DNA of 64,000 bases from positions 32,001-96,000 of the IMG/VR virus record IMGVR_UViG_3300014204_000120; one strand, given 5' to 3'. The notes beneath the pieces were generated by a model. It did not search any database, had not been told where the DNA came from, and was given only the letters and a program-made list of their open reading frames with translations. Source of the stretch: a virus (lineage: Duplodnaviria; Caudoviricetes). Positions within the stretch are counted from its first letter, which is position 1, and each line of letters starts with the position of its first letter. Both the position numbers and the translations under genes were made by a program. Positions 7,194 to 13,493 of this stretch are shown here, one piece after another.

Positions 7194-7294
7194 TATAAAT
7201 AATGGTAGAAAGTTGGGACAGCCACAAATGGTTTTCTAACCCCAATTTAGAATTACCTTCTTTCTACTATTAAAAAACCTTATTGGGAGGTTTT
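7194..7294 (+). promoter_or_regulatory. Late promoter plus structured 5' UTR with RBS-sequestering hairpin
   Basis: TATAAATA at 7194; 7201-7212 pairs with 7260-7271; AAAACCT (7274-7280) pairs with AGGTTTT (7288-7294), covering GGAGG. Confidence 0.6.
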
Positions 7295-8432
7295 GATGTG
7301 TAAAAAATTAACTAAAGAAGAATTTATTGAACGATCAAAAAAAATTCACGGTAATAAATACGATTATAGTTTAGTAGATTATATTAATAATAATACTAAA
7401 GTTAAAATTATTTGTTTAAAATGTAATAAAATATTTGAACAAACACCAAATAATCATTTAAATGGTAAGGGTTGTAAAAAATGTAGAAAAACTAAGCACA
7501 AAATGTCAACAATTGAATTTATTGCAAGAGTAAAAGAGATTTGGGGTGATGTTTATGATTATAATTTGGTAGAATATAATAATTTAAACGATAATATTAA
7601 AATTATATGTAAGATTCATGGAGTGTTTAAACAAAAACCTAAAGATCATCTTAGAGGTTGCGGTTGTAGACAATGTGGTATAGATAAAACTAGAAAATTA
7701 AAAATAATGTCATGGGATGATGTTTTAACAAAGTTTAAAAAAATTTATGGTAATGAATATGATTATAGTGAATCTGTGTATCTTTCAATGAATTATCCGA
7801 TTGCTATAATTTGTAAAAATCATGGAATTTTTTATATGTTGCCTAAATATCATTTACATAATGGTGGATGTCCAAAATGCTCAAGACAAAAAATGATAAT
7901 TACAAAAACCAAAAAAATAGAAAATGTTTTATTAGATTTTCGAAATGTTCATGGTGATAATTATGATTATAGTCAGGTTGAATATATTAATAGTAGAACT
8001 AAAATTAAAATTATATGTAAAAAACACGGGATATTTGAACAAACACCAAACAATCATTTAAGAGGTGAATGTTGTCCTAAATGTAAAATATCATTAGGAG
8101 AAAATAAAATATTAATTTGGTTAAATAAAAATAAAATAAAATTTGAACAGCAGAAAGAATTTGATGGTTGTCAATGTAAATTTAATTTAAAATTTGATTT
8201 TTATTTATCAGATTATAATATCTGTATTGAATATGATGGAGGATTACATTTTAAACCTGTTGAATATTTTGGTGGTGAAGAAGCACACGAAAAAACTAAA
8301 ATGAGAGATCAAATAAAAAATGATTATTGTAAAAATAATAATATTAAACTATTTAGGATACCATATTGGAAATTTAATGATATAAATTATATTTTAAAGA
8401 ATATAATAGAAGAAGCAAAAAACTTTTTTTGA
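7293..8432 (+). CDS. Free-standing homing endonuclease-like protein (tandem Zn-binding repeats plus PD-(D/E)XK/Vsr-like nuclease); likely start 7296
   Basis: Four repeats of HG.xYDYS.V.Y...IIC..HG.F.Q.P..HL.G.GC..C; C-terminal FDFYL...IEYDGGLHF...KLFRIPY. Confidence 0.8.
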   Translation: MMCKKLTKEEFIERSKKIHGNKYDYSLVDYINNNTKVKIICLKCNKIFEQTPNNHLNGKGCKKCRKTKHKMSTIEFIARVKEIWGDVYDYNLVEYNNLNDNIKIICKIHGVFKQKPKDHLRGCGCRQCGIDKTRKLKIMSWDDVLTKFKKIYGNEYDYSESVYLSMNYPIAIICKNHGIFYMLPKYHLHNGGCPKCSRQKMIITKTKKIENVLLDFRNVHGDNYDYSQVEYINSRTKIKIICKKHGIFEQTPNNHLRGECCPKCKISLGENKILIWLNKNKIKFEQQKEFDGCQCKFNLKFDFYLSDYNICIEYDGGLHFKPVEYFGGEEAHEKTKMRDQIKNDYCKNNNIKLFRIPYWKFNDINYILKNIIEEAKNFF

Positions 8433-8945
8433 TTATCTAGTCAGAACTATTTTATGATTATGTGTGATATTTTTGATAGCTCTACCACGTAAATCAAATG
8501 TATAACTAGTATTACTGAAACGGTTTATACGAACATTTTTATGTGATGGGATTATTGAACTAGACTGAAGACCTGAAAATTTTTCCCAGTTATCAAAATT
8601 TTCTGGTAGACTATCGACAATTTCAAGTAAAAAATTAGTTATAATATATCCATCTTTGTTAATCCAGATTTGACTGCTGGTGAAGTCAATAGCAAATGCA
8701 TTACACCAAAGACTATTAGTCAATGTCTGACCACTAATTATAGTTGCATCATTATTTTTAATTAGTGGTTTACTGTGGGGATAGTATTCATACCGGCAAG
8801 GATTTGGGAACGGGCAGACCTGAACTGAGTCATGCCAGTTTACATAACCGAGTTGTTTATCGCCAAAATTCATACACCAAGTCGTATCAGCTGCGAAACT
8901 GATACCAATGAACAGAAGCACGGTTGATACAATTTTCTTGAACAT
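8433..8945 (-). CDS. Secreted protein with signal peptide
   Basis: MFKKIVSTVLLFIGISFA-A signal peptide; RBS GAAAGGA; own consensus promoter; basic C-terminus YTFDLRGR. Confidence 0.7.
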   Translation of the reverse strand: MFKKIVSTVLLFIGISFAADTTWCMNFGDKQLGYVNWHDSVQVCPFPNPCRYEYYPHSKPLIKNNDATIISGQTLTNSLWCNAFAIDFTSSQIWINKDGYIITNFLLEIVDSLPENFDNWEKFSGLQSSSIIPSHKNVRINRFSNTSYTFDLRGRAIKNITHNHKIVLTR

Positions 8946-8986
8946 TGACTAATCCTTTCTTTAGGTTAATTTCCAATCGCAACCAT

Positions 8987-9015
8987 AATATACATCAGTT
9001 CAATGGATTTGTCAA
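8987..9015 (-). promoter_or_regulatory. sigma70-type promoter of the 170-aa gene
   Basis: TTGACA (9015-9010), 17 nt, TATATT (8992-8987). Confidence 0.8.
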
Positions 9016-9041
9016 GGTCAAAAATCAGAAAAAATCAATTG

Positions 9042-9375
9042 CAGTCCGTCCGCGCACGTGTGGAGTTTACCTCAGTTGAATCAAATAAAACTTCAGTCGT
9101 TGCAGTCCGTCCGCGCACGTGTGGAGTTTACTGTTTTATGTCTAGTACCCAAATTGCCAGATACAGTCCGTCCGCGCATGTGTGGAGTTTACGACAATAG
9201 AGCTGATGGTGTGTTGGAAAAAGACAGTCCGTCCGCGCATGTGTGGAGTTTACAAATTAACTTGTCATATTAAAAACAATAAAGGCAGTCCGTCCGCGCA
9301 TGTGTGGAGTTTACCAAAATCATAATAACTATTGAATTGGTCAAACCAGTCCGTCCGCGCATGTGTGGAGTTTAC
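9042..9375. CRISPR. CRISPR array: 6 repeats of 29 nt, 5 spacers of 32 nt
   Basis: CAGTCCGTCCGCGCAYGTGTGGAGTTTAC starts at 9042, 9103, 9164, 9225, 9286, 9347 (period 61); all spacers unique. Confidence 0.97.
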
Positions 9376-9603
9376 ACCAACCAGTTGTGGCGGAGTTTTA
9401 AAAATTCCACTATGTGTTGTATTTAAAGATATTTAAATAAAACGGTGCGGGTTAGTGAGTGGTATAATTAACCAATCAAATTAAGATTTGGTGAAGCTAA
9501 AATTATCCCTCACCTTTTGGCTAAGGACCTTAGCCAAGGCAATTAAATTAATAATTACCTATTCAAATATTTTATTAAAATGTCAAAGAACAATATATCA
9601 TCT
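9376..9603 (-). ncRNA. Putative tracrRNA/omega-like scaffold RNA and array leader
   Basis: No ORF; own promoter; perfect inverted repeat 9517-9537, hairpin 9471-9492, GTGAG/CTCAC long-range pairing, repeat-related segment 9382-9410. Confidence 0.6.
9581..9592 (-). promoter_or_regulatory. boxA-like antitermination element
   Basis: TGTTCTTTGACA, 10/12 identical to E. coli rrn boxA TGCTCTTTAACA, just after the predicted start site. Confidence 0.5.
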
Positions 9604-9609
9604 ATTAAT

Positions 9610-9638
9610 AATATAACATCTTCTTTTTTATAAATCAA
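9610..9638 (-). promoter_or_regulatory. sigma70-type promoter for the scaffold RNA/array
   Basis: TTGATT (9638-9633), 17 nt, TATATT (9615-9610) with extended -10 TG; overlaps the nuclease stop codon. Confidence 0.7.
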
Positions 9639-10917
9639 TGTTTGTTGAATTTGCAATATTAATAGCAGCATTTAAATCAGCGTTAATTTCATTGTTACAG
9701 TGTTTACATATAAACTTATCTTGAGAAAGACGATTATCTTTATCCACATATCCGCATTTAGAGCATGTTTGACTGGTATAAGCCGCTTTGATTGTAACAA
9801 CTTTTACGCCTTCTTTTTCAGCTTTATAAGTTATCATGCTTTGTAGTTGATAATATGGCCAGTGCATGAGAAGCATTGGTTTATTTTTAGAGATACCTGA
9901 TAGATTTTCAATTTTAATAATACCAGCATTGTTTTTGATTGCATAATTAATGATTTGTTTGCTAATGAAGTGATTATAACTGGTATGGAAATTAGATATA
10001 TTATTTCTTAGTCTATTTAGATTTTTCAGTTTCTTTTTTCTACCATGCCCTCCGCCAGCTCTGGCTATGCTTTTTTGTAATGATTTTCTGCGGTTATATA
10101 ATTGTATAGATGTTTTAATGTAATCTTCTTTGTTTCCAATAAAAATAGGATTTTCAGAGTTTTGTAAAGCACAAACGGCAGGATTAACCATACCTAAATC
10201 TACACCAACAACAATGTTTGAATCTAAATTATGTTCTTTAATTTTTTCAGATATAACTAGATTAAAAAATAAATCATTGTCTTTGAGTTGAATAGTAGAT
10301 GCACATGTTTTAATTTGAGAAATGTCATTAATATTTTCGTTTTCAATAATTTTATCAACAGTGTGTTTAATATTGGCAGGATCTTTACCAAATAATATAC
10401 CAAATTTTATAATTTCACCTTTTTTTATGTGCCAATTAAAATAATACTTATCATTTGTTTTTTCTAATTTAATAGATATTTGCGTTACTGGTAATGGCAT
10501 ATTTGCTTTAAATGAAGTTATTGATTTTTTTCCAATTTTAATTTCTCTAAAGTCACTTTTATATTTTTTATATACTGATGTTTTTAGTGTATTGGTTATA
10601 CTGGGTGGTAAATTAGGATACTTAGCTTTGACGTCGTGTTCGAATTGGGCTTCATCTTTAATACCAAAATGTTCAAAGAATTTTTCGCGTATTTTATTAA
10701 CTTCGTCTTTATCTTTTATATCAACATCATGTCGTGCTAATAATCGCTCCATCCATTGTTCATTAAATATAATTCCACCAATTATATAATTAGCAGCTCT
10801 AAACGAGTCATTAAATAATTGATATAATCGTTTCCATTGGGCATCCTTTTCCTCTTTAGAATCAGTTGCAACAAACAGTTTTAGTTTTAATACTCTGGTA
10901 TGCATTCCTTCAGTCAT
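9628..10917 (-). CDS. cas12f: Cas12f/TnpB-family RNA-guided nuclease (C2c10/AsCas12f1-like), about 429 aa, catalytic residues intact
   Basis: RuvC-I VGVDLG, RuvC-II IKIENL, Zn finger CSKC...CKHC, RuvC-III NADLNAA, and the GGHGRKKK motif as in AsCas12f1. ATG at 10917 follows RBS GAAAGGA (track start 10932). Adjacent to the array. Confidence 0.85.
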   Translation of the reverse strand: MTEGMHTRVLKLKLFVATDSKEEKDAQWKRLYQLFNDSFRAANYIIGGIIFNEQWMERLLARHDVDIKDKDEVNKIREKFFEHFGIKDEAQFEHDVKAKYPNLPPSITNTLKTSVYKKYKSDFREIKIGKKSITSFKANMPLPVTQISIKLEKTNDKYYFNWHIKKGEIIKFGILFGKDPANIKHTVDKIIENENINDISQIKTCASTIQLKDNDLFFNLVISEKIKEHNLDSNIVVGVDLGMVNPAVCALQNSENPIFIGNKEDYIKTSIQLYNRRKSLQKSIARAGGGHGRKKKLKNLNRLRNNISNFHTSYNHFISKQIINYAIKNNAGIIKIENLSGISKNKPMLLMHWPYYQLQSMITYKAEKEGVKVVTIKAAYTSQTCSKCGYVDKDNRLSQDKFICKHCNNEINADLNAAINIANSTNIDL

Positions 10918-10946
10918 AATATATCCTTTCAATAAATGTTAATATT

Positions 10947-10965
10947 AATATAACATTTTCTTTTT
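10947..10965 (-). promoter_or_regulatory. Extended -10 promoter of the nuclease gene
   Basis: AAAAGAAAATGTTATATT, same motif as at 9610, 30100 and 37960. Confidence 0.55.
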
Positions 10966-11083
10966 AAGAAGTTGTTTAATATTTCAAAAATATAAATACT
11001 TAGTGAGTTTATTCAAAGATATTTTAAATAATTCTTAGTTTAAGACTTTATAGAATATAATCATATCACATTGTTAAATCCGT

Positions 11084-11117: not shown

Positions 11118-13493
11118 ATGTCAAAGTATTATGTAAAAATTAGTAATGCGTATGTATCAACAGGATTAGGAAGCACGTTTTCCCCGTTTACGTTTACACA
11201 GTTTGTAGACAGGTTATCATCAACTACGGTTTCTGATGAGTATTATGTTTCTGGAACGAGGATAATCAACACAGATTTATTAATGACAATTAGTGGTGCT
11301 ACATGTGTAATCAGTGCTTGGGGAGAGGATCCATATTACATTGTAGGTAATAGTGCTGATATATATTTTGCTATTGGGTCAAACAGTTTAAACATATATG
11401 ATATGATATTGGGATGCACATTATCAACAACGACTGAAGTTTTATTTGATTCGACTGAGGATGAAGCTAGGTCACAGAATTTAGTTATAGATAATTGTTA
11501 TATAAATTTAACTACGTATAATATTGGTTTTGAGGATTTTAATAGTGTAATAGTACGGAATTCTAATTTAGTTGCAGATAAAATAATAGGTCAGAACATA
11601 GTTAGTATGTCGTTTGTTAATGATATATTTGATGTTAGTGATATAGATTGTACAGAAGATAATGATGTTGATGTATTCACTTTGGATAATTGTGCGTTTA
11701 CAAGTGCTACGGCTGGATTTACAACGGATGATACAGATTGGACTAATGTACAGGAATTATGGGCAAGACCAGATGATATATTTAATGCAAGTGTTTCAGC
11801 AATTTCAGCTGATAGTTTTCATTATTTAAGTGCTGATTTTGGAACAATTACAATAAGTGGAGATACTGATTATACAAACACATGGTATAATGGAAGACGA
11901 GATGGTATAGGAAGTTTATATTTTCCAGCATTAAGTGGTGTAAGTGTTTCAGCATCGTTAGTATCAGCTGCACCAAATACAACCATTAGTTTTGTTTTGA
12001 GTGGTAATAATCCTTTTACAGTTTTTAGTGCAACGAGTGCTACATATTATTTTGATGATGAAAATACGTCCGCGGTAAATACAAATAGTACATTAGCGCA
12101 TATATATTCGGCTACAGATTATTATAATACTAGTGCTGTTATGATTTCTAAAAATAGTTGGTATACAGTTACAACACCAGTCCAAGTTATATTAGTAGGA
12201 GCATTTACAGTTATAATAAAGGTATATGATGCTTTTGGAAATGATAAGACTGGTGGAGTATTAAGACCTTTATCATATGTATCAGTTTCAGCAAGTGCTA
12301 ATGGATATGATGGTATAGATAGTTATGTATGGGATTTTGGAGATGCTACTGGTAGTGTTCCAGTTTCAGGTATAACTAATCCTGATAATACATATTATAT
12401 TGGATTAGGAATGAAGACTATATCTTTAACTGCTCATGCTGTAGAAGAAACATTCTCTGCAACAGCAAATACAACATTAGGAATATCAGCTTTAACAAGT
12501 GCTTATTATGTTAATATAACTTCAGCTTATGATGCTAATACTGGTAATATAGGAACATTAGCTGATCCATATAATTGGGATGAATTTAAAACTAGAGTTG
12601 AATCGTTTGTAAGTGCAGATTATAGTGATACATATTATTTAAGTGGAAGTAGAAAATTAACACAACCTACAACAGGTCAAAATGTATTAGCTATAAATTC
12701 GTTGAAAAATTTAACTATTGACTGTTGGGAGAATTCAGCAACGCATGGAGCTCCTTGGTTGCTTGAAATAGAAGACTGGACAACGACAAATGCTAATTCG
12801 ATATTATCGGCAGTCGGAACAACATTAAAGAATGGTATAATTTATAATAAGAGATATATTTCTCCTGGTTATGGTGGAACATTAAAGATAACTAATGTAT
12901 ATGATATGTTTATAGTTTATCAAGGTACATATGCTGGAATAGAAATAGACCCTTGGAACTTTGTATTATATTGTGGTGGTACATGTGGTGTAGTAATGCC
13001 AAGTGCGGATTCAAATATTATAGGAAGTACTTTATATTTAAGTGGAAATGGATTTACTGATAATTTTGTTGTAGGAGATTATTCAGAAATATATTTACCA
13101 GCGACTCAACAAACAGGATATAATTTAGATTTAATAGATTCTGTTTTTGTTAATTTAGATTTAGAAGATTCTAATTATTTCAGTGCTGCTGATGTATATA
13201 TTAGAAATAGTACTTTTAATAGAGCTTCTAGTGCTATTGAAGCAGATTTTGATATATCAGCTAATGATGATAGTCAGTTTGGTTGGTCTCCACCCGTTAG
13301 TTATCCGTTTACACCAAGTCATAGGTTATATGATAAAAATATAGAGTATGTGATATTAAAGAAGGGAGACTTAGTACCGTTTAGTGATATTGATATGCCG
13401 CCTAATCCGGGCTATGGAGCTTCGGCATATTCTGAATATGATACTGGCTTGTGGGGTTATGCTAGAAATCAATATAATACAAGTGCGAGTTAA
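11118..13493 (+). CDS. Virion (baseplate/fibre-associated) protein with beta-helix-like modules and PKD domains
   Basis: Acidic, S/T-rich; SYVWDFGD PKD motif; two YYV...G.GT..DP(F/Y) modules; late promoter. Confidence 0.65.
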   Translation: MSKYYVKISNAYVSTGLGSTFSPFTFTQFVDRLSSTTVSDEYYVSGTRIINTDLLMTISGATCVISAWGEDPYYIVGNSADIYFAIGSNSLNIYDMILGCTLSTTTEVLFDSTEDEARSQNLVIDNCYINLTTYNIGFEDFNSVIVRNSNLVADKIIGQNIVSMSFVNDIFDVSDIDCTEDNDVDVFTLDNCAFTSATAGFTTDDTDWTNVQELWARPDDIFNASVSAISADSFHYLSADFGTITISGDTDYTNTWYNGRRDGIGSLYFPALSGVSVSASLVSAAPNTTISFVLSGNNPFTVFSATSATYYFDDENTSAVNTNSTLAHIYSATDYYNTSAVMISKNSWYTVTTPVQVILVGAFTVIIKVYDAFGNDKTGGVLRPLSYVSVSASANGYDGIDSYVWDFGDATGSVPVSGITNPDNTYYIGLGMKTISLTAHAVEETFSATANTTLGISALTSAYYVNITSAYDANTGNIGTLADPYNWDEFKTRVESFVSADYSDTYYLSGSRKLTQPTTGQNVLAINSLKNLTIDCWENSATHGAPWLLEIEDWTTTNANSILSAVGTTLKNGIIYNKRYISPGYGGTLKITNVYDMFIVYQGTYAGIEIDPWNFVLYCGGTCGVVMPSADSNIIGSTLYLSGNGFTDNFVVGDYSEIYLPATQQTGYNLDLIDSVFVNLDLEDSNYFSAADVYIRNSTFNRASSAIEADFDISANDDSQFGWSPPVSYPFTPSHRLYDKNIEYVILKKGDLVPFSDIDMPPNPGYGASAYSEYDTGLWGYARNQYNTSAS
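11428..11459 (+). other. Protospacer matching array spacer 9071-9102 (31/32)
   Basis: CAACGACTGAAGTTTTATTTGATTCGACTGAG vs reverse complement of the spacer CAACGACTGAAGTTTTATTTGATTCAACTGAG. Confidence 0.95.

What the first reader, a model, noticed from the sequence alone, without database searches (positions are those of the whole stretch)
9376..9638. Independently promoted ~230-nt scaffold RNA with boxA between nuclease and array
Seen on the minus strand, in order: TTGATT-17-TATATT promoter overlapping the stop codon, TGTTCTTTGACA, perfect hairpin TTGGCTAAGG-T-CCTTAGCCAA (9537-9517), GGTGAGGG...ACTCAC pairing, hairpin 9492-9471, and GTGGAATTTTTAAAACTCCGCCAC just before the first repeat. Known: Cas12f needs a long tracrRNA, TnpB omega-RNAs lie at the gene 3' end, and boxA/Nus antitermination protects some bacterial arrays from Rho. 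Inference: a tracr/omega scaffold possibly co-transcribed with the array as a natural single-guide precursor, using host Nus factors.
Basis: partly seen in the sequence, partly recalled or inferred. Interest (0 to 1): 0.72.

Follow-up and report, generated by a model that had tools for sequence, protein, structure and literature searches.

The report
Phage Cas12f tracrRNA scaffold beside its array
The non-coding stretch between a miniature phage-borne Cas12f nuclease gene and its small CRISPR array encodes the nuclease's conserved guide-RNA scaffold (tracrRNA), an expected part of such systems; the proposed boxA element and private promoter are no better than chance.

Summary
Two of them, the hairpin at 9537-9517 and the GGTGAGGG...ACTCAC pairing, form the conserved core of the guide-RNA scaffold of the Cas12f1 (V-U3)/TnpB lineage. 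A covariance model built only from relatives hits the window once, at 9543-9430 on the minus strand (E 1.9e-12). Both helices covary: 95% of cells paired against 35-43% in slid controls. All 190 matches in relatives lie in the nuclease-gene sense, many just 5' of a mini-array.

Downstream of the core lie a two-part anti-repeat and a truncated repeat-like fragment that pairs with it. The loop of the first hairpin matches the 3' end of the repeat (a pseudoknot). Across 17 loci this loop-to-repeat match is specific (0/5000 permutations).

The conserved unit starts about 4 nt before the hairpin, so the functional scaffold is about 140-170 nt, not 230.

- **boxA:** the match has 2 mismatches; 8 such sites occur in the window against 10.5 expected, and it lies outside the conserved unit.
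- **Promoter:** the hexamers are at chance level.
- **Transcription:** no RNA data were available.

One caveat on orientation remains: wobble positions favour the opposite strand. Verdict: a real tracrRNA and a new member of a known kind.

The parts
9628..10932 (-). cas12f1-like nuclease gene (434 aa, P0001), with RuvC D245/E342/D419 and a CxxC...CxxC zinc finger
   Evidence: PADLOC Cas12f 2e-106 and Cas12u3 6e-103. Pfam Cas12f1-like_TNB and OrfB_IS605. Best PDB matches are SpCas12f1 8hr5 at 3e-55 and AsCas12f 8j12 at 1e-43. Invariant columns in alignment A1.
9610..9638 (-). Promoter-like TTGATT-17-TATATT spanning the stop codon; function open
   Evidence: Scores 9 of 12 with a TG extension. 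Such sites are at chance density in this AT-rich DNA (23 found against 18.7 expected). Not conserved in relatives.
9581..9592 (-). boxA-like word TGTTCTTTGACA; judged a chance match
   Evidence: 2 mismatches to the rrn boxA consensus. 8 such sites in the window against 10.5 expected. It lies outside the conserved module.
9430..9543 (-). Conserved scaffold core of the tracrRNA (match to covariance model R1)
   Evidence: 38.8 bits, E 1.9e-12; the only hit in the window and in the 137.8-kb record. Covariation shown.
9517..9537 (-). Hairpin 1. Its loop centre GGUCC (9529-9525) is complementary to the 3' end of the repeat (GGACU), the predicted pseudoknot
   Evidence: Helix 1 has 5 of 6 pairs with changes on both sides. 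The loop-to-repeat-tail match is specific across 17 loci, 0/5000 permutations, and the window's loop pairs best with its own repeat tail.
9454..9514 (-).
   Evidence: cmsearch alignment. The minimum-energy fold recovers it. Compensatory GGCGAG/CTCGCC variants occur in L002, L008, L144 and others.
9445..9450 (-). Anti-repeat part a (CCGCAC), predicted to pair with repeat nt 16-21 (GCGCGG) with one A.C mismatch
   Evidence: Its position is homologous to 8-bp anti-repeats in L003, L167, L171 and L169 that change together with their repeats. It is weak in the window itself.
9416..9443 (-). AU-rich hairpin or U-rich linker between the two anti-repeat parts
   Evidence: Folds. Relatives have a U-rich linker at the same place.
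9402..9414 (-). Anti-repeat part b (CAUAGUGGAAUUU), predicted to pair with the 5' half of the repeat (nt 3-16)
   Evidence: RNAduplex results. It is homologous to the L003 segment that pairs perfectly with the first 10 nt of that locus's repeat.
9387..9399 (-). Truncated repeat-like fragment (AAAACUCCgCcAC) that pairs in cis with anti-repeat part b.
   Evidence: Sequence comparison with the repeat and folds.
9376..9388 (-). Leader-repeat junction motif ACAAcTggTTGGT, directly before repeat 1
   Evidence: The same ACAAnnTnnTTGG(T/A)|GT junction is present in L167, L169 and L171.
9042..9375 (-). CRISPR array: six 29-nt repeats and five 32-nt spacers (period 61)
   Evidence: The two distal repeats carry CACGTG and the four proximal ones carry CACATG.

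Best explanation
The stretch from about 9543 to about 9402 (minus strand) encodes the tracrRNA of a phage-borne Cas12f1 (type V-F1, formerly V-U3) system. It descends from the TnpB omega/reRNA scaffold.

Shown:
- It contains the lineage's conserved core: hairpin 1, a short purine linker, and the GGUGAG/CUCAC stem with a bulged A.
- It lies on the same strand as the nuclease gene and the array, directly 5' of the array, as in relatives.

Inferred:
- crRNAs cut from the array (repeat 5', spacer 3') dock on the scaffold through three contacts. The last nucleotides of the repeat pair with the loop of hairpin 1, forming a pseudoknot. The 3' half of the repeat pairs with anti-repeat part a, right after the CUCACUAAC motif. 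The 5' half of the repeat pairs with anti-repeat part b.
- A Cas12f dimer binds this RNA and cleaves PAM-flanked DNA that matches the 32-nt spacers.

Open:
- No terminator is predicted between gene, scaffold and array. The scaffold may be made by read-through from the nuclease gene, from its own promoter, or both. It may stay joined to the first repeat-spacer unit before processing.
For: 1. The nuclease is a Cas12f1-type protein with intact catalytic and zinc residues.
2. Model R1, built from 43 relatives without the window, hits 9543-9430 on the minus strand at E 1.9e-12. This is the only hit in the window and in the whole record.
3. Covariation: 95.8% of cells paired against 81.5% in shuffles; score 0.435 against 0.155; 0/500 shuffles reach it; slid registers give 35-43%; 8 of 14 pairs change on both sides. 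The 69-sequence alignment that includes the window gives the same picture, although that alignment was fitted to the model.
4. All 190 R1 matches in 168 relatives' loci are in the gene sense, and R1 also hits bacterial genomes such as Clostridioides difficile and Bacteroides. Of 55 distinct scaffolds found by pattern, 23 have an array starting at a median of 41 nt downstream.
5. L003 carries two identical scaffold+leader+array units, one on each side of its gene. Their identity begins 4 nt before hairpin 1.
6. The anti-repeat changes together with the repeat in L003, L167, L169 and L171. Complementarity is specific to the gene-sense repeat in L003 (z -4.8), L171 (z -2.9) and L169 (z -2.4).
7. 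The hairpin-1 loop is complementary to the cognate repeat tail in 17 loci, 0/5000 permutations.
8. Published Cas12f1 guide RNAs have the same plan: stem 1, pseudoknot, stem 2, and a repeat:anti-repeat stem. That core is shared with the TnpB reRNA (PMC12255294). The tracrRNA is encoded between the nuclease gene and the array (PMC7229846).
Against: - In the window itself, repeat:anti-repeat complementarity in the gene sense is weak (-12.4 kcal/mol, z -1.6, 7% of shuffled repeats do as well).
- Every non-Watson-Crick position in the predicted pairings, and in the repeat's own palindrome, is A.C on the minus strand but G.U on the plus strand. The plus/plus combination therefore scores -23.9 kcal/mol (z -4.6).
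- The plus strand of the region folds as well as the minus strand.
- No transcript data exist, so the RNA ends, processing and activity are all inferred.
- The closest relatives with usable flanks are only 36-42% identical in protein, so the anti-repeat parts rest on position and pairing, not on alignment.
Confidence: 0.85

Rival explanations
1. Opposite orientation of the guides. The array is transcribed from the plus strand, convergent with cas12f. The truncated repeat fragment at 9399-9387 on the minus-strand scaffold RNA serves as the anti-repeat for the 3' end of plus-sense repeats.
For: - Plus-sense pairings replace all A.C mismatches with G.U pairs. The plus/plus duplex scores -23.9 kcal/mol (z -4.6) against -12.4 (z -1.6) for minus/minus.
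- The repeat's internal palindrome closes only in the plus sense (sequence).
- The fragment AAACUCC..CCACA is complementary to the plus-sense repeat tail.
- Another first-stage note raised the same conflict.
Against: - The scaffold model hits only the minus strand.
- All 190 relatives' scaffolds are in the gene sense, with arrays just downstream in the same sense.
- The junction motif before repeat 1 is shared with relatives.
- Within the homologous loop, the gene-sense repeat tail gives 5 bp and the opposite tail only 3.
- The two repeats farthest from the scaffold keep the letter found in relatives. That fits a leader on the scaffold side.
- No plus-strand promoter-like site lies before the array.
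Confidence: 0.09
2. One reading: a discrete RNA of about 230 nt, started at the TTGATT-17-TATATT promoter, whose boxA recruits host Nus factors to carry transcription through the array.
For: - The hexamers and the 12-mer exist, in the right order and on the right strand.
- No intrinsic terminator is predicted between them and the array.
Against: - The boxA-like word has 2 mismatches and occurs at chance frequency (8 against 10.5 expected).
- Promoter-like sites are at chance density.
- Both elements lie in the 84-nt AT-rich spacer that has no counterpart in relatives. There the scaffold abuts or overlaps the ORF end, and the duplicated unit in L003 starts at hairpin 1.
- The 96%-identical twin contig is identical over this stretch, so it gives no test.
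Confidence: 0.05
3. The scaffold is the omega RNA of a TnpB transposon remnant and the neighbouring repeats are unrelated to it.
For: - NCBIfam places the protein in the guided TnpB family.
- The same scaffold core is found in array-less relatives that look like IS elements, e.g. L038-L058.
Against: - Six regular repeats with five distinct spacers start 76 nt after the core.
- Anti-repeat and pseudoknot complementarity to those repeats.
- No transposase next to the gene, and one scaffold copy in the record.
- The best profile matches are Cas12f/V-U3.
Confidence: 0.03

Closest known systems
tracrRNA/sgRNA of Cas12f1 (type V-F1, formerly V-U3) nucleases such as SpCas12f1, AsCas12f, OsCas12f, RhCas12f and Al3Cas12f
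   Same: - A miniature nuclease of the same family (PDB matches 3e-55 to 1e-41).
- No adaptation genes in the record.
- The tracrRNA is encoded between the gene and the array (PMC7229846).
- The core of stem, pseudoknot with the repeat tail, and stem, plus a repeat:anti-repeat duplex (PMC12255294).
- Others have already used covariance models to predict such tracrRNAs (PMC13186708).
   Different: - Carried by a large phage (a 137.8-kb record judged 53% complete).
- Protein only about 30-42% identical to characterised or database relatives.
- The scaffold has a roughly 50-nt insertion in stem 2.
- The repeats are 29 nt with 32-nt spacers and resemble type I-E repeats, rather than the 36-37-nt repeats of most characterised Cas12f1 systems.
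- A truncated repeat fragment pairs with the anti-repeat in cis.
- I could not compare it letter by letter with a published tracrRNA.
TnpB omega RNA (reRNA) of IS200/IS605 elements
   Same: - A scaffold encoded at or after the 3' end of the nuclease gene, on the same strand.
- A homologous core, also found in array-less relatives.
- In some relatives the scaffold overlaps the ORF end.
   Different: Here the guide is supplied by a separate repeat-spacer array through an anti-repeat. It is not fused to the scaffold at a transposon end. No transposase or element ends were seen.
boxA/Nus antitermination of CRISPR arrays, known from Salmonella and other bacteria (recalled from my own knowledge, not re-read here)
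   Same: A boxA-like 12-mer sits upstream of an array on the transcribed strand.
   Different: It matches 10 of 12 positions at chance frequency. It is not conserved in relatives and lies upstream of the scaffold, not in a leader directly before the repeats.

Membership tests
Cas12f1 (V-F1/V-U3) tracrRNA-crRNA guide system | Effector is a Cas12f1-type miniature RuvC nuclease with an intact D-E-D triad and zinc finger | tested here: met
   PADLOC Cas12f 2e-106 and Cas12u3 6e-103. PDB Cas12f1 structures at 3e-55 to 1e-41. D245, E342, D419 and four Cys are invariant in A1.
Cas12f1 (V-F1/V-U3) tracrRNA-crRNA guide system | CRISPR array next to the effector gene, and no adaptation genes | tested here: met
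   Six repeats and five spacers at 9375-9042. No Cas1 or Cas2 in the 137.8-kb record, which is only about half the genome.
Cas12f1 (V-F1/V-U3) tracrRNA-crRNA guide system | Conserved structured scaffold homologous to that of relatives, on the gene strand | tested here: met
   R1 hit at 9543-9430, minus strand, E 1.9e-12. Covariation. All 190 matches in relatives are in the gene sense.
Cas12f1 (V-F1/V-U3) tracrRNA-crRNA guide system | Anti-repeat complementary to the repeat | tested here: inconclusive
   Clear in relatives (L003 z -4.8, L171 -2.9, L169 -2.4). In the window it is about 16 bp in two parts but only z -1.6, and it scores better on the opposite strand.
Cas12f1 (V-F1/V-U3) tracrRNA-crRNA guide system | Pseudoknot between the scaffold and the repeat nucleotides next to the guide | tested here: met
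   Loop-to-tail complementarity is specific across 17 loci (0/5000 permutations). In the window GGUCC pairs with GGACU. This is prediction only.
Cas12f1 (V-F1/V-U3) tracrRNA-crRNA guide system | A discrete expressed tracrRNA that is required for DNA cleavage | not testable with these tools
   No RNA run was listed for this DNA. There are no functional data.
TnpB omega RNA (IS200/IS605) | Guide fused directly to the scaffold at the transposon end; element ends and often a TnpA gene | tested here: not met
   An array follows the scaffold. The neighbouring ORFs have no transposase domains.
boxA/Nus antitermination element | A match to the boxA consensus that exceeds chance | tested here: not met
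   2 mismatches; 8 sites in the window against 10.5 +/- 2.9 expected.
boxA/Nus antitermination element | Conserved at the same position in related loci | tested here: not met
   The region 5' of hairpin 1 does not align among relatives. The unit duplicated in L003 starts at hairpin 1.

The most novel reading that the evidence does not exclude
The scaffold, leader and array form one portable guide cassette. It is transcribed as a single precursor whose first unit can fold in cis like a natural single guide. The truncated repeat fragment at 9399-9387 masks the anti-repeat until crRNAs displace it. The array itself is of type I-E make (29-nt repeats, 32-nt spacers, one target flank ending AAG), so it would be filled by a host type I-E Cas1-Cas2. 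In that reading a phage Cas12f and its tracrRNA have adapted to use repeats belonging to the host's unrelated CRISPR type.
Probability: 0.25. Interest if true: 0.65.

Novelty: new member of a known kind. Interest (0 to 1): 0.3.

Why it matters
- **Locus annotation:** the RNA partner of a very small, phage-borne RNA-guided nuclease is placed to within a few nucleotides, so a single-guide RNA could be designed and tested directly.
- **Family-wide result:** this Cas12f/TnpB lineage shares a compact scaffold core. In many phage loci the scaffold and a mini-array move as one unit, sometimes in several copies around the gene.
- **Biology:** that a Cas12f needs a tracrRNA encoded next to its array is already established, so the finding is ordinary in kind.
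- **What would be new:** the less ordinary aspects are the I-E-like array geometry, the cis-masking repeat fragment, and a spacer that matches the phage's own neighbouring gene. These are leads, not results.

Tried and rejected
- A single-protein scan of viral contigs found no relative. The alignment-based scans did.
- BLAST of the locus and of the array against the GenBank phage collection found nothing.
- Exact searches for spacers 1, 2 and 5 in IMG/VR found nothing.
- Rfam gave no family at gathering scores, and only chance-level matches at relaxed thresholds.
- No RNA holder was listed among the public runs.
- Contigs from four DNA runs added no variation inside the scaffold. Uneven cover over the array cannot be interpreted.
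- The 96%-identical twin contig L173 is identical over 9627-9513, so it gives no test of the promoter or boxA.
- MAFFT first aligned the window's GCTTCACCAA to the conserved CACTCACCAA. I rejected this because CCACTCACTAA further 3' keeps all invariant letters and the bulged A, and because cmsearch chose it.
- I first leaned towards plus-strand orientation of the array, on the repeat palindrome and similarity to some relatives' repeat tails. Homology of the scaffold, junction motif and pseudoknot made me drop it as the main reading. It is kept as a rival.
- A full-text search for the scaffold motifs in Cas12f papers did not give a published sequence to compare with.
- L123 and L124 (I-E-like repeats, a more distant Cas12f) have no R1 hit, so the model does not cover all Cas12f subgroups.

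Full report
**Context.** The window is part of a 137,849-bp IMG/VR virus record judged about 53% complete. Nearly all its genes are on the plus strand. A small minus-strand island holds three things:
- a 434-aa gene at 10932-9628;
- a 252-nt gap;
- six 29-nt repeats separated by five 32-nt spacers at 9375-9042.

A 170-aa ORF with a strong promoter-like site of its own follows.

The protein is a Cas12f1-type nuclease. PADLOC gives Cas12f 2e-106 and Cas12u3 (V-U3) 6e-103. Pfam finds the Cas12f1-like TNB and OrfB_IS605 domains. The best solved relatives are SpCas12f1 and AsCas12f. The RuvC acidic residues and the four zinc-finger cysteines are invariant in an alignment with its nearest relatives. 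No Cas1 or Cas2 is encoded in the record.

**Observation.** The promoter-like hexamers are one of 23 such sites in 3 kb, against 18.7 expected. The boxA-like 12-mer has two mismatches to the rrn consensus. Words that close occur 8 times in the window against 10.5 expected. Neither element stands out from this AT-rich DNA.

**Homology of the gap.** The closest proteins are 36-42% identical, apart from a 96% twin on a 1.3-kb contig. I fetched their contigs. Aligning the DNA 5' of their arrays showed a shared unit, in this order:
- a hairpin (GGCU...AGCC in the window);
- a purine linker;
- GGTGAG, a loop, then CACTCACYAAC;
- a short segment complementary to the repeat;
- a U-rich stretch;
- a junction motif, ACAAnnTnnTTGG, just before the first repeat.

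The unit is present whether the array lies downstream of the gene (the window, L002, L169, L003) or upstream of it (L167, L171, L004, and L003 again). L003 has two copies. They are identical from 4 nt before the hairpin through the first repeat and unrelated before that. This sets the 5' edge of the functional unit at about 9541-9543 in the window. The promoter-like site and the boxA-like word lie upstream of that edge.

**Structure test.** A pattern search found the hairpin plus GGTGAG/CTCAC core in many loci. I aligned 43 distinct examples without the window and counted pairs for a two-helix structure:
- 95.8% of cells paired, against 81.5% in shuffles and 35-43% in slid registers;
- covariation score 0.435 against 0.155;
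- 0 of 500 shuffles as high;
- five of six pairs of helix 1 and three of eight of helix 2 change on both sides, for example GGCGAG/CTCGCC.

The covariance model from this alignment (R1) hits the window once, at 9543-9430 on the minus strand (38.8 bits, E 1.9e-12), and once in the whole record. It pairs GGUGAGGG (9514-9507) with CCaCUCACU (9462-9454) across an insertion of about 50 nt. The minimum-energy fold of 9543-9376 gives the same two helices.

In 168 relatives' loci R1 finds 190 sites, every one in the gene sense and often several per locus. It also hits bacterial genomes, including Clostridioides difficile and Bacteroides. Of 55 distinct scaffolds found by pattern, 23 are followed by an array at a median of 41 nt; the window's distance is 76 nt. 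The array-less ones look like TnpB elements. The core is therefore shared between omega RNAs and tracrRNAs, as published for Cas12f1 and TnpB (PMC12255294).

**How the crRNA would dock.**

*In relatives.*
- The segment right after CUCACYAAC pairs with the 3' half of the repeat and changes with it: CUCCGCAC in L167, CUUCGCAU in L171 and CCUUGCGC in L003, each against GYGCGGGG.
- A second segment pairs with the 5' half of the repeat; in L003 that is 10 perfect pairs.
- The complementarity is specific to the gene-sense repeat in L003, L171 and L169.

*In the window.*
- The homologous parts are CCGCAC (9450-9445) and CAUAGUGGAAUUU (9414-9402), separated by an AU hairpin.
- Together they give about 16 pairs with the repeat, but only -12.4 kcal/mol (z -1.6).

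*The hairpin-1 loop.*
- The loop is complementary to the last nucleotides of the cognate repeat in 17 loci with very different repeats: UUUUG with CAAAA, UUUCG with CGAAA, UUCAG with CUGAA, GGCCCA with UGGGUC, GGCUCA with UGAGUC.
- Cognate pairs are about 2.9 kcal/mol better than permuted ones, 0 of 5000 permutations.
- In the window GGUCC faces GGACU.
- This corresponds to the pseudoknot of solved Cas12f1 guide RNAs (PMC12255294).

**Orientation.** This is the one real uncertainty.

For the minus (gene) sense:
- the strand of the model hit;
- the unanimous gene-sense arrangement in relatives;
- the shared junction motif;
- the loop-to-tail pairing;
- the two repeats farthest from the scaffold keep the G found in relatives, while the four nearest share an A, as expected if new units are added at the scaffold side;
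- no plus-strand promoter-like site lies before the array.

Against it:
- all non-Watson-Crick positions in the predicted pairings and in the repeat palindrome are A.C on the minus strand and G.U on the plus strand;
- the plus/plus duplex is much stronger (-23.9 kcal/mol, z -4.6);
- the plus strand folds as well as the minus strand.

I put about 0.85 on the gene sense.

**Transcription.**
- No terminator-like site lies between gene, scaffold and array.
- In several relatives the scaffold abuts or overlaps the ORF end. Read-through from the nuclease gene is therefore at least as plausible as a private promoter.
- No RNA run holds this DNA, so RNA starts, ends and processing are untested.
- A joint precursor with the array is plausible because the two always travel together. 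It is not shown.

**Comparison and novelty.** A tracrRNA between a V-U3/Cas12f1 gene and its array is established (PMC7229846). The stem-pseudoknot-stem core and its kinship with the TnpB reRNA are established too (PMC12255294). Covariance models have already been used to find such tracrRNAs (PMC13186708). Jumbo phages carrying CRISPR systems without adaptation genes are also known (PMC11656645). This is a new, divergent member of a known kind.

Other first-stage notes on this genome raise the I-E-like geometry and the orientation conflict. I reached both independently and tested the second.

**Verdict.** The tracrRNA/omega reading is supported. The 230-nt length, the boxA element and the private promoter are not supported or remain open. 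Interest is modest.

Noticed in passing
window 11428-11459 (+), against spacer 5 at 9102-9071 (-): The spacer farthest from the scaffold matches the phage's own genome at 31 of 32 positions (mismatch at spacer position 26). The site lies inside the 791-aa PKD-like ORF 11118-13493, about 2 kb from the array. The flank 5' of the protospacer reads ...ATTATCAA. This could be self-targeting tolerated for lack of a PAM, a regulatory guide, or a spacer taken from a related phage.
   Followed up: partly
window 9042-9375; relatives L003, L169, L167, L171, L002: The array has type I-E geometry (29-nt repeat, 32-nt spacer, period 61). The relatives' repeats look like I-E repeats (..CCCGC..GCGGGGATGAACC). 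A contig in run X3 carries the spacer-2 protospacer with a 5' flank ending AA+G, the I-E type of flank. This suggests spacers may be supplied by a host I-E Cas1-Cas2. Other first-stage notes raise the same idea.
   Followed up: partly
L003 2709-2977 and 4300-4826; L101, L095, L093, L052, L029 and others: Many phage and metagenome loci carry two to five scaffold-plus-mini-array units around one cas12f gene. In L003 the two units are identical from hairpin 1 to the first repeat. The scaffold and array behave as one duplicable cassette.
   Followed up: partly
L167 1201-2169: One close relative (P0008, 39% identity) lies near a 322-aa Y1 transposase-family gene, with only a two-repeat array just before the nuclease gene. 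It may be an intermediate between a TnpB element and a CRISPR locus.
   Followed up: no
window 8987-9015 (-) and ORF 8945-8433 (-): A near-consensus TTGACA-17-TATATT site sits right after the last repeat, in front of a 170-aa ORF with a signal-peptide-like start and no Pfam family. The sequence after the last repeat, which would be read as a sixth guide, is this promoter.
   Followed up: no
window 7293-8432 (+): A 379-aa ORF built of four roughly 200-nt internal repeats (60-72% identical), with a DUF4379 treble-clef zinc-finger match.
   Followed up: no
window 8900-11000, laid on runs X3-X6: Near-identical DNA occurs in landfill and groundwater metagenomes from several studies. The nuclease gene shows strain variants (for example 15 differences in 190 nt at 10081-10270). 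The one contig covering 9347-10110 is identical to the window.
   Followed up: partly
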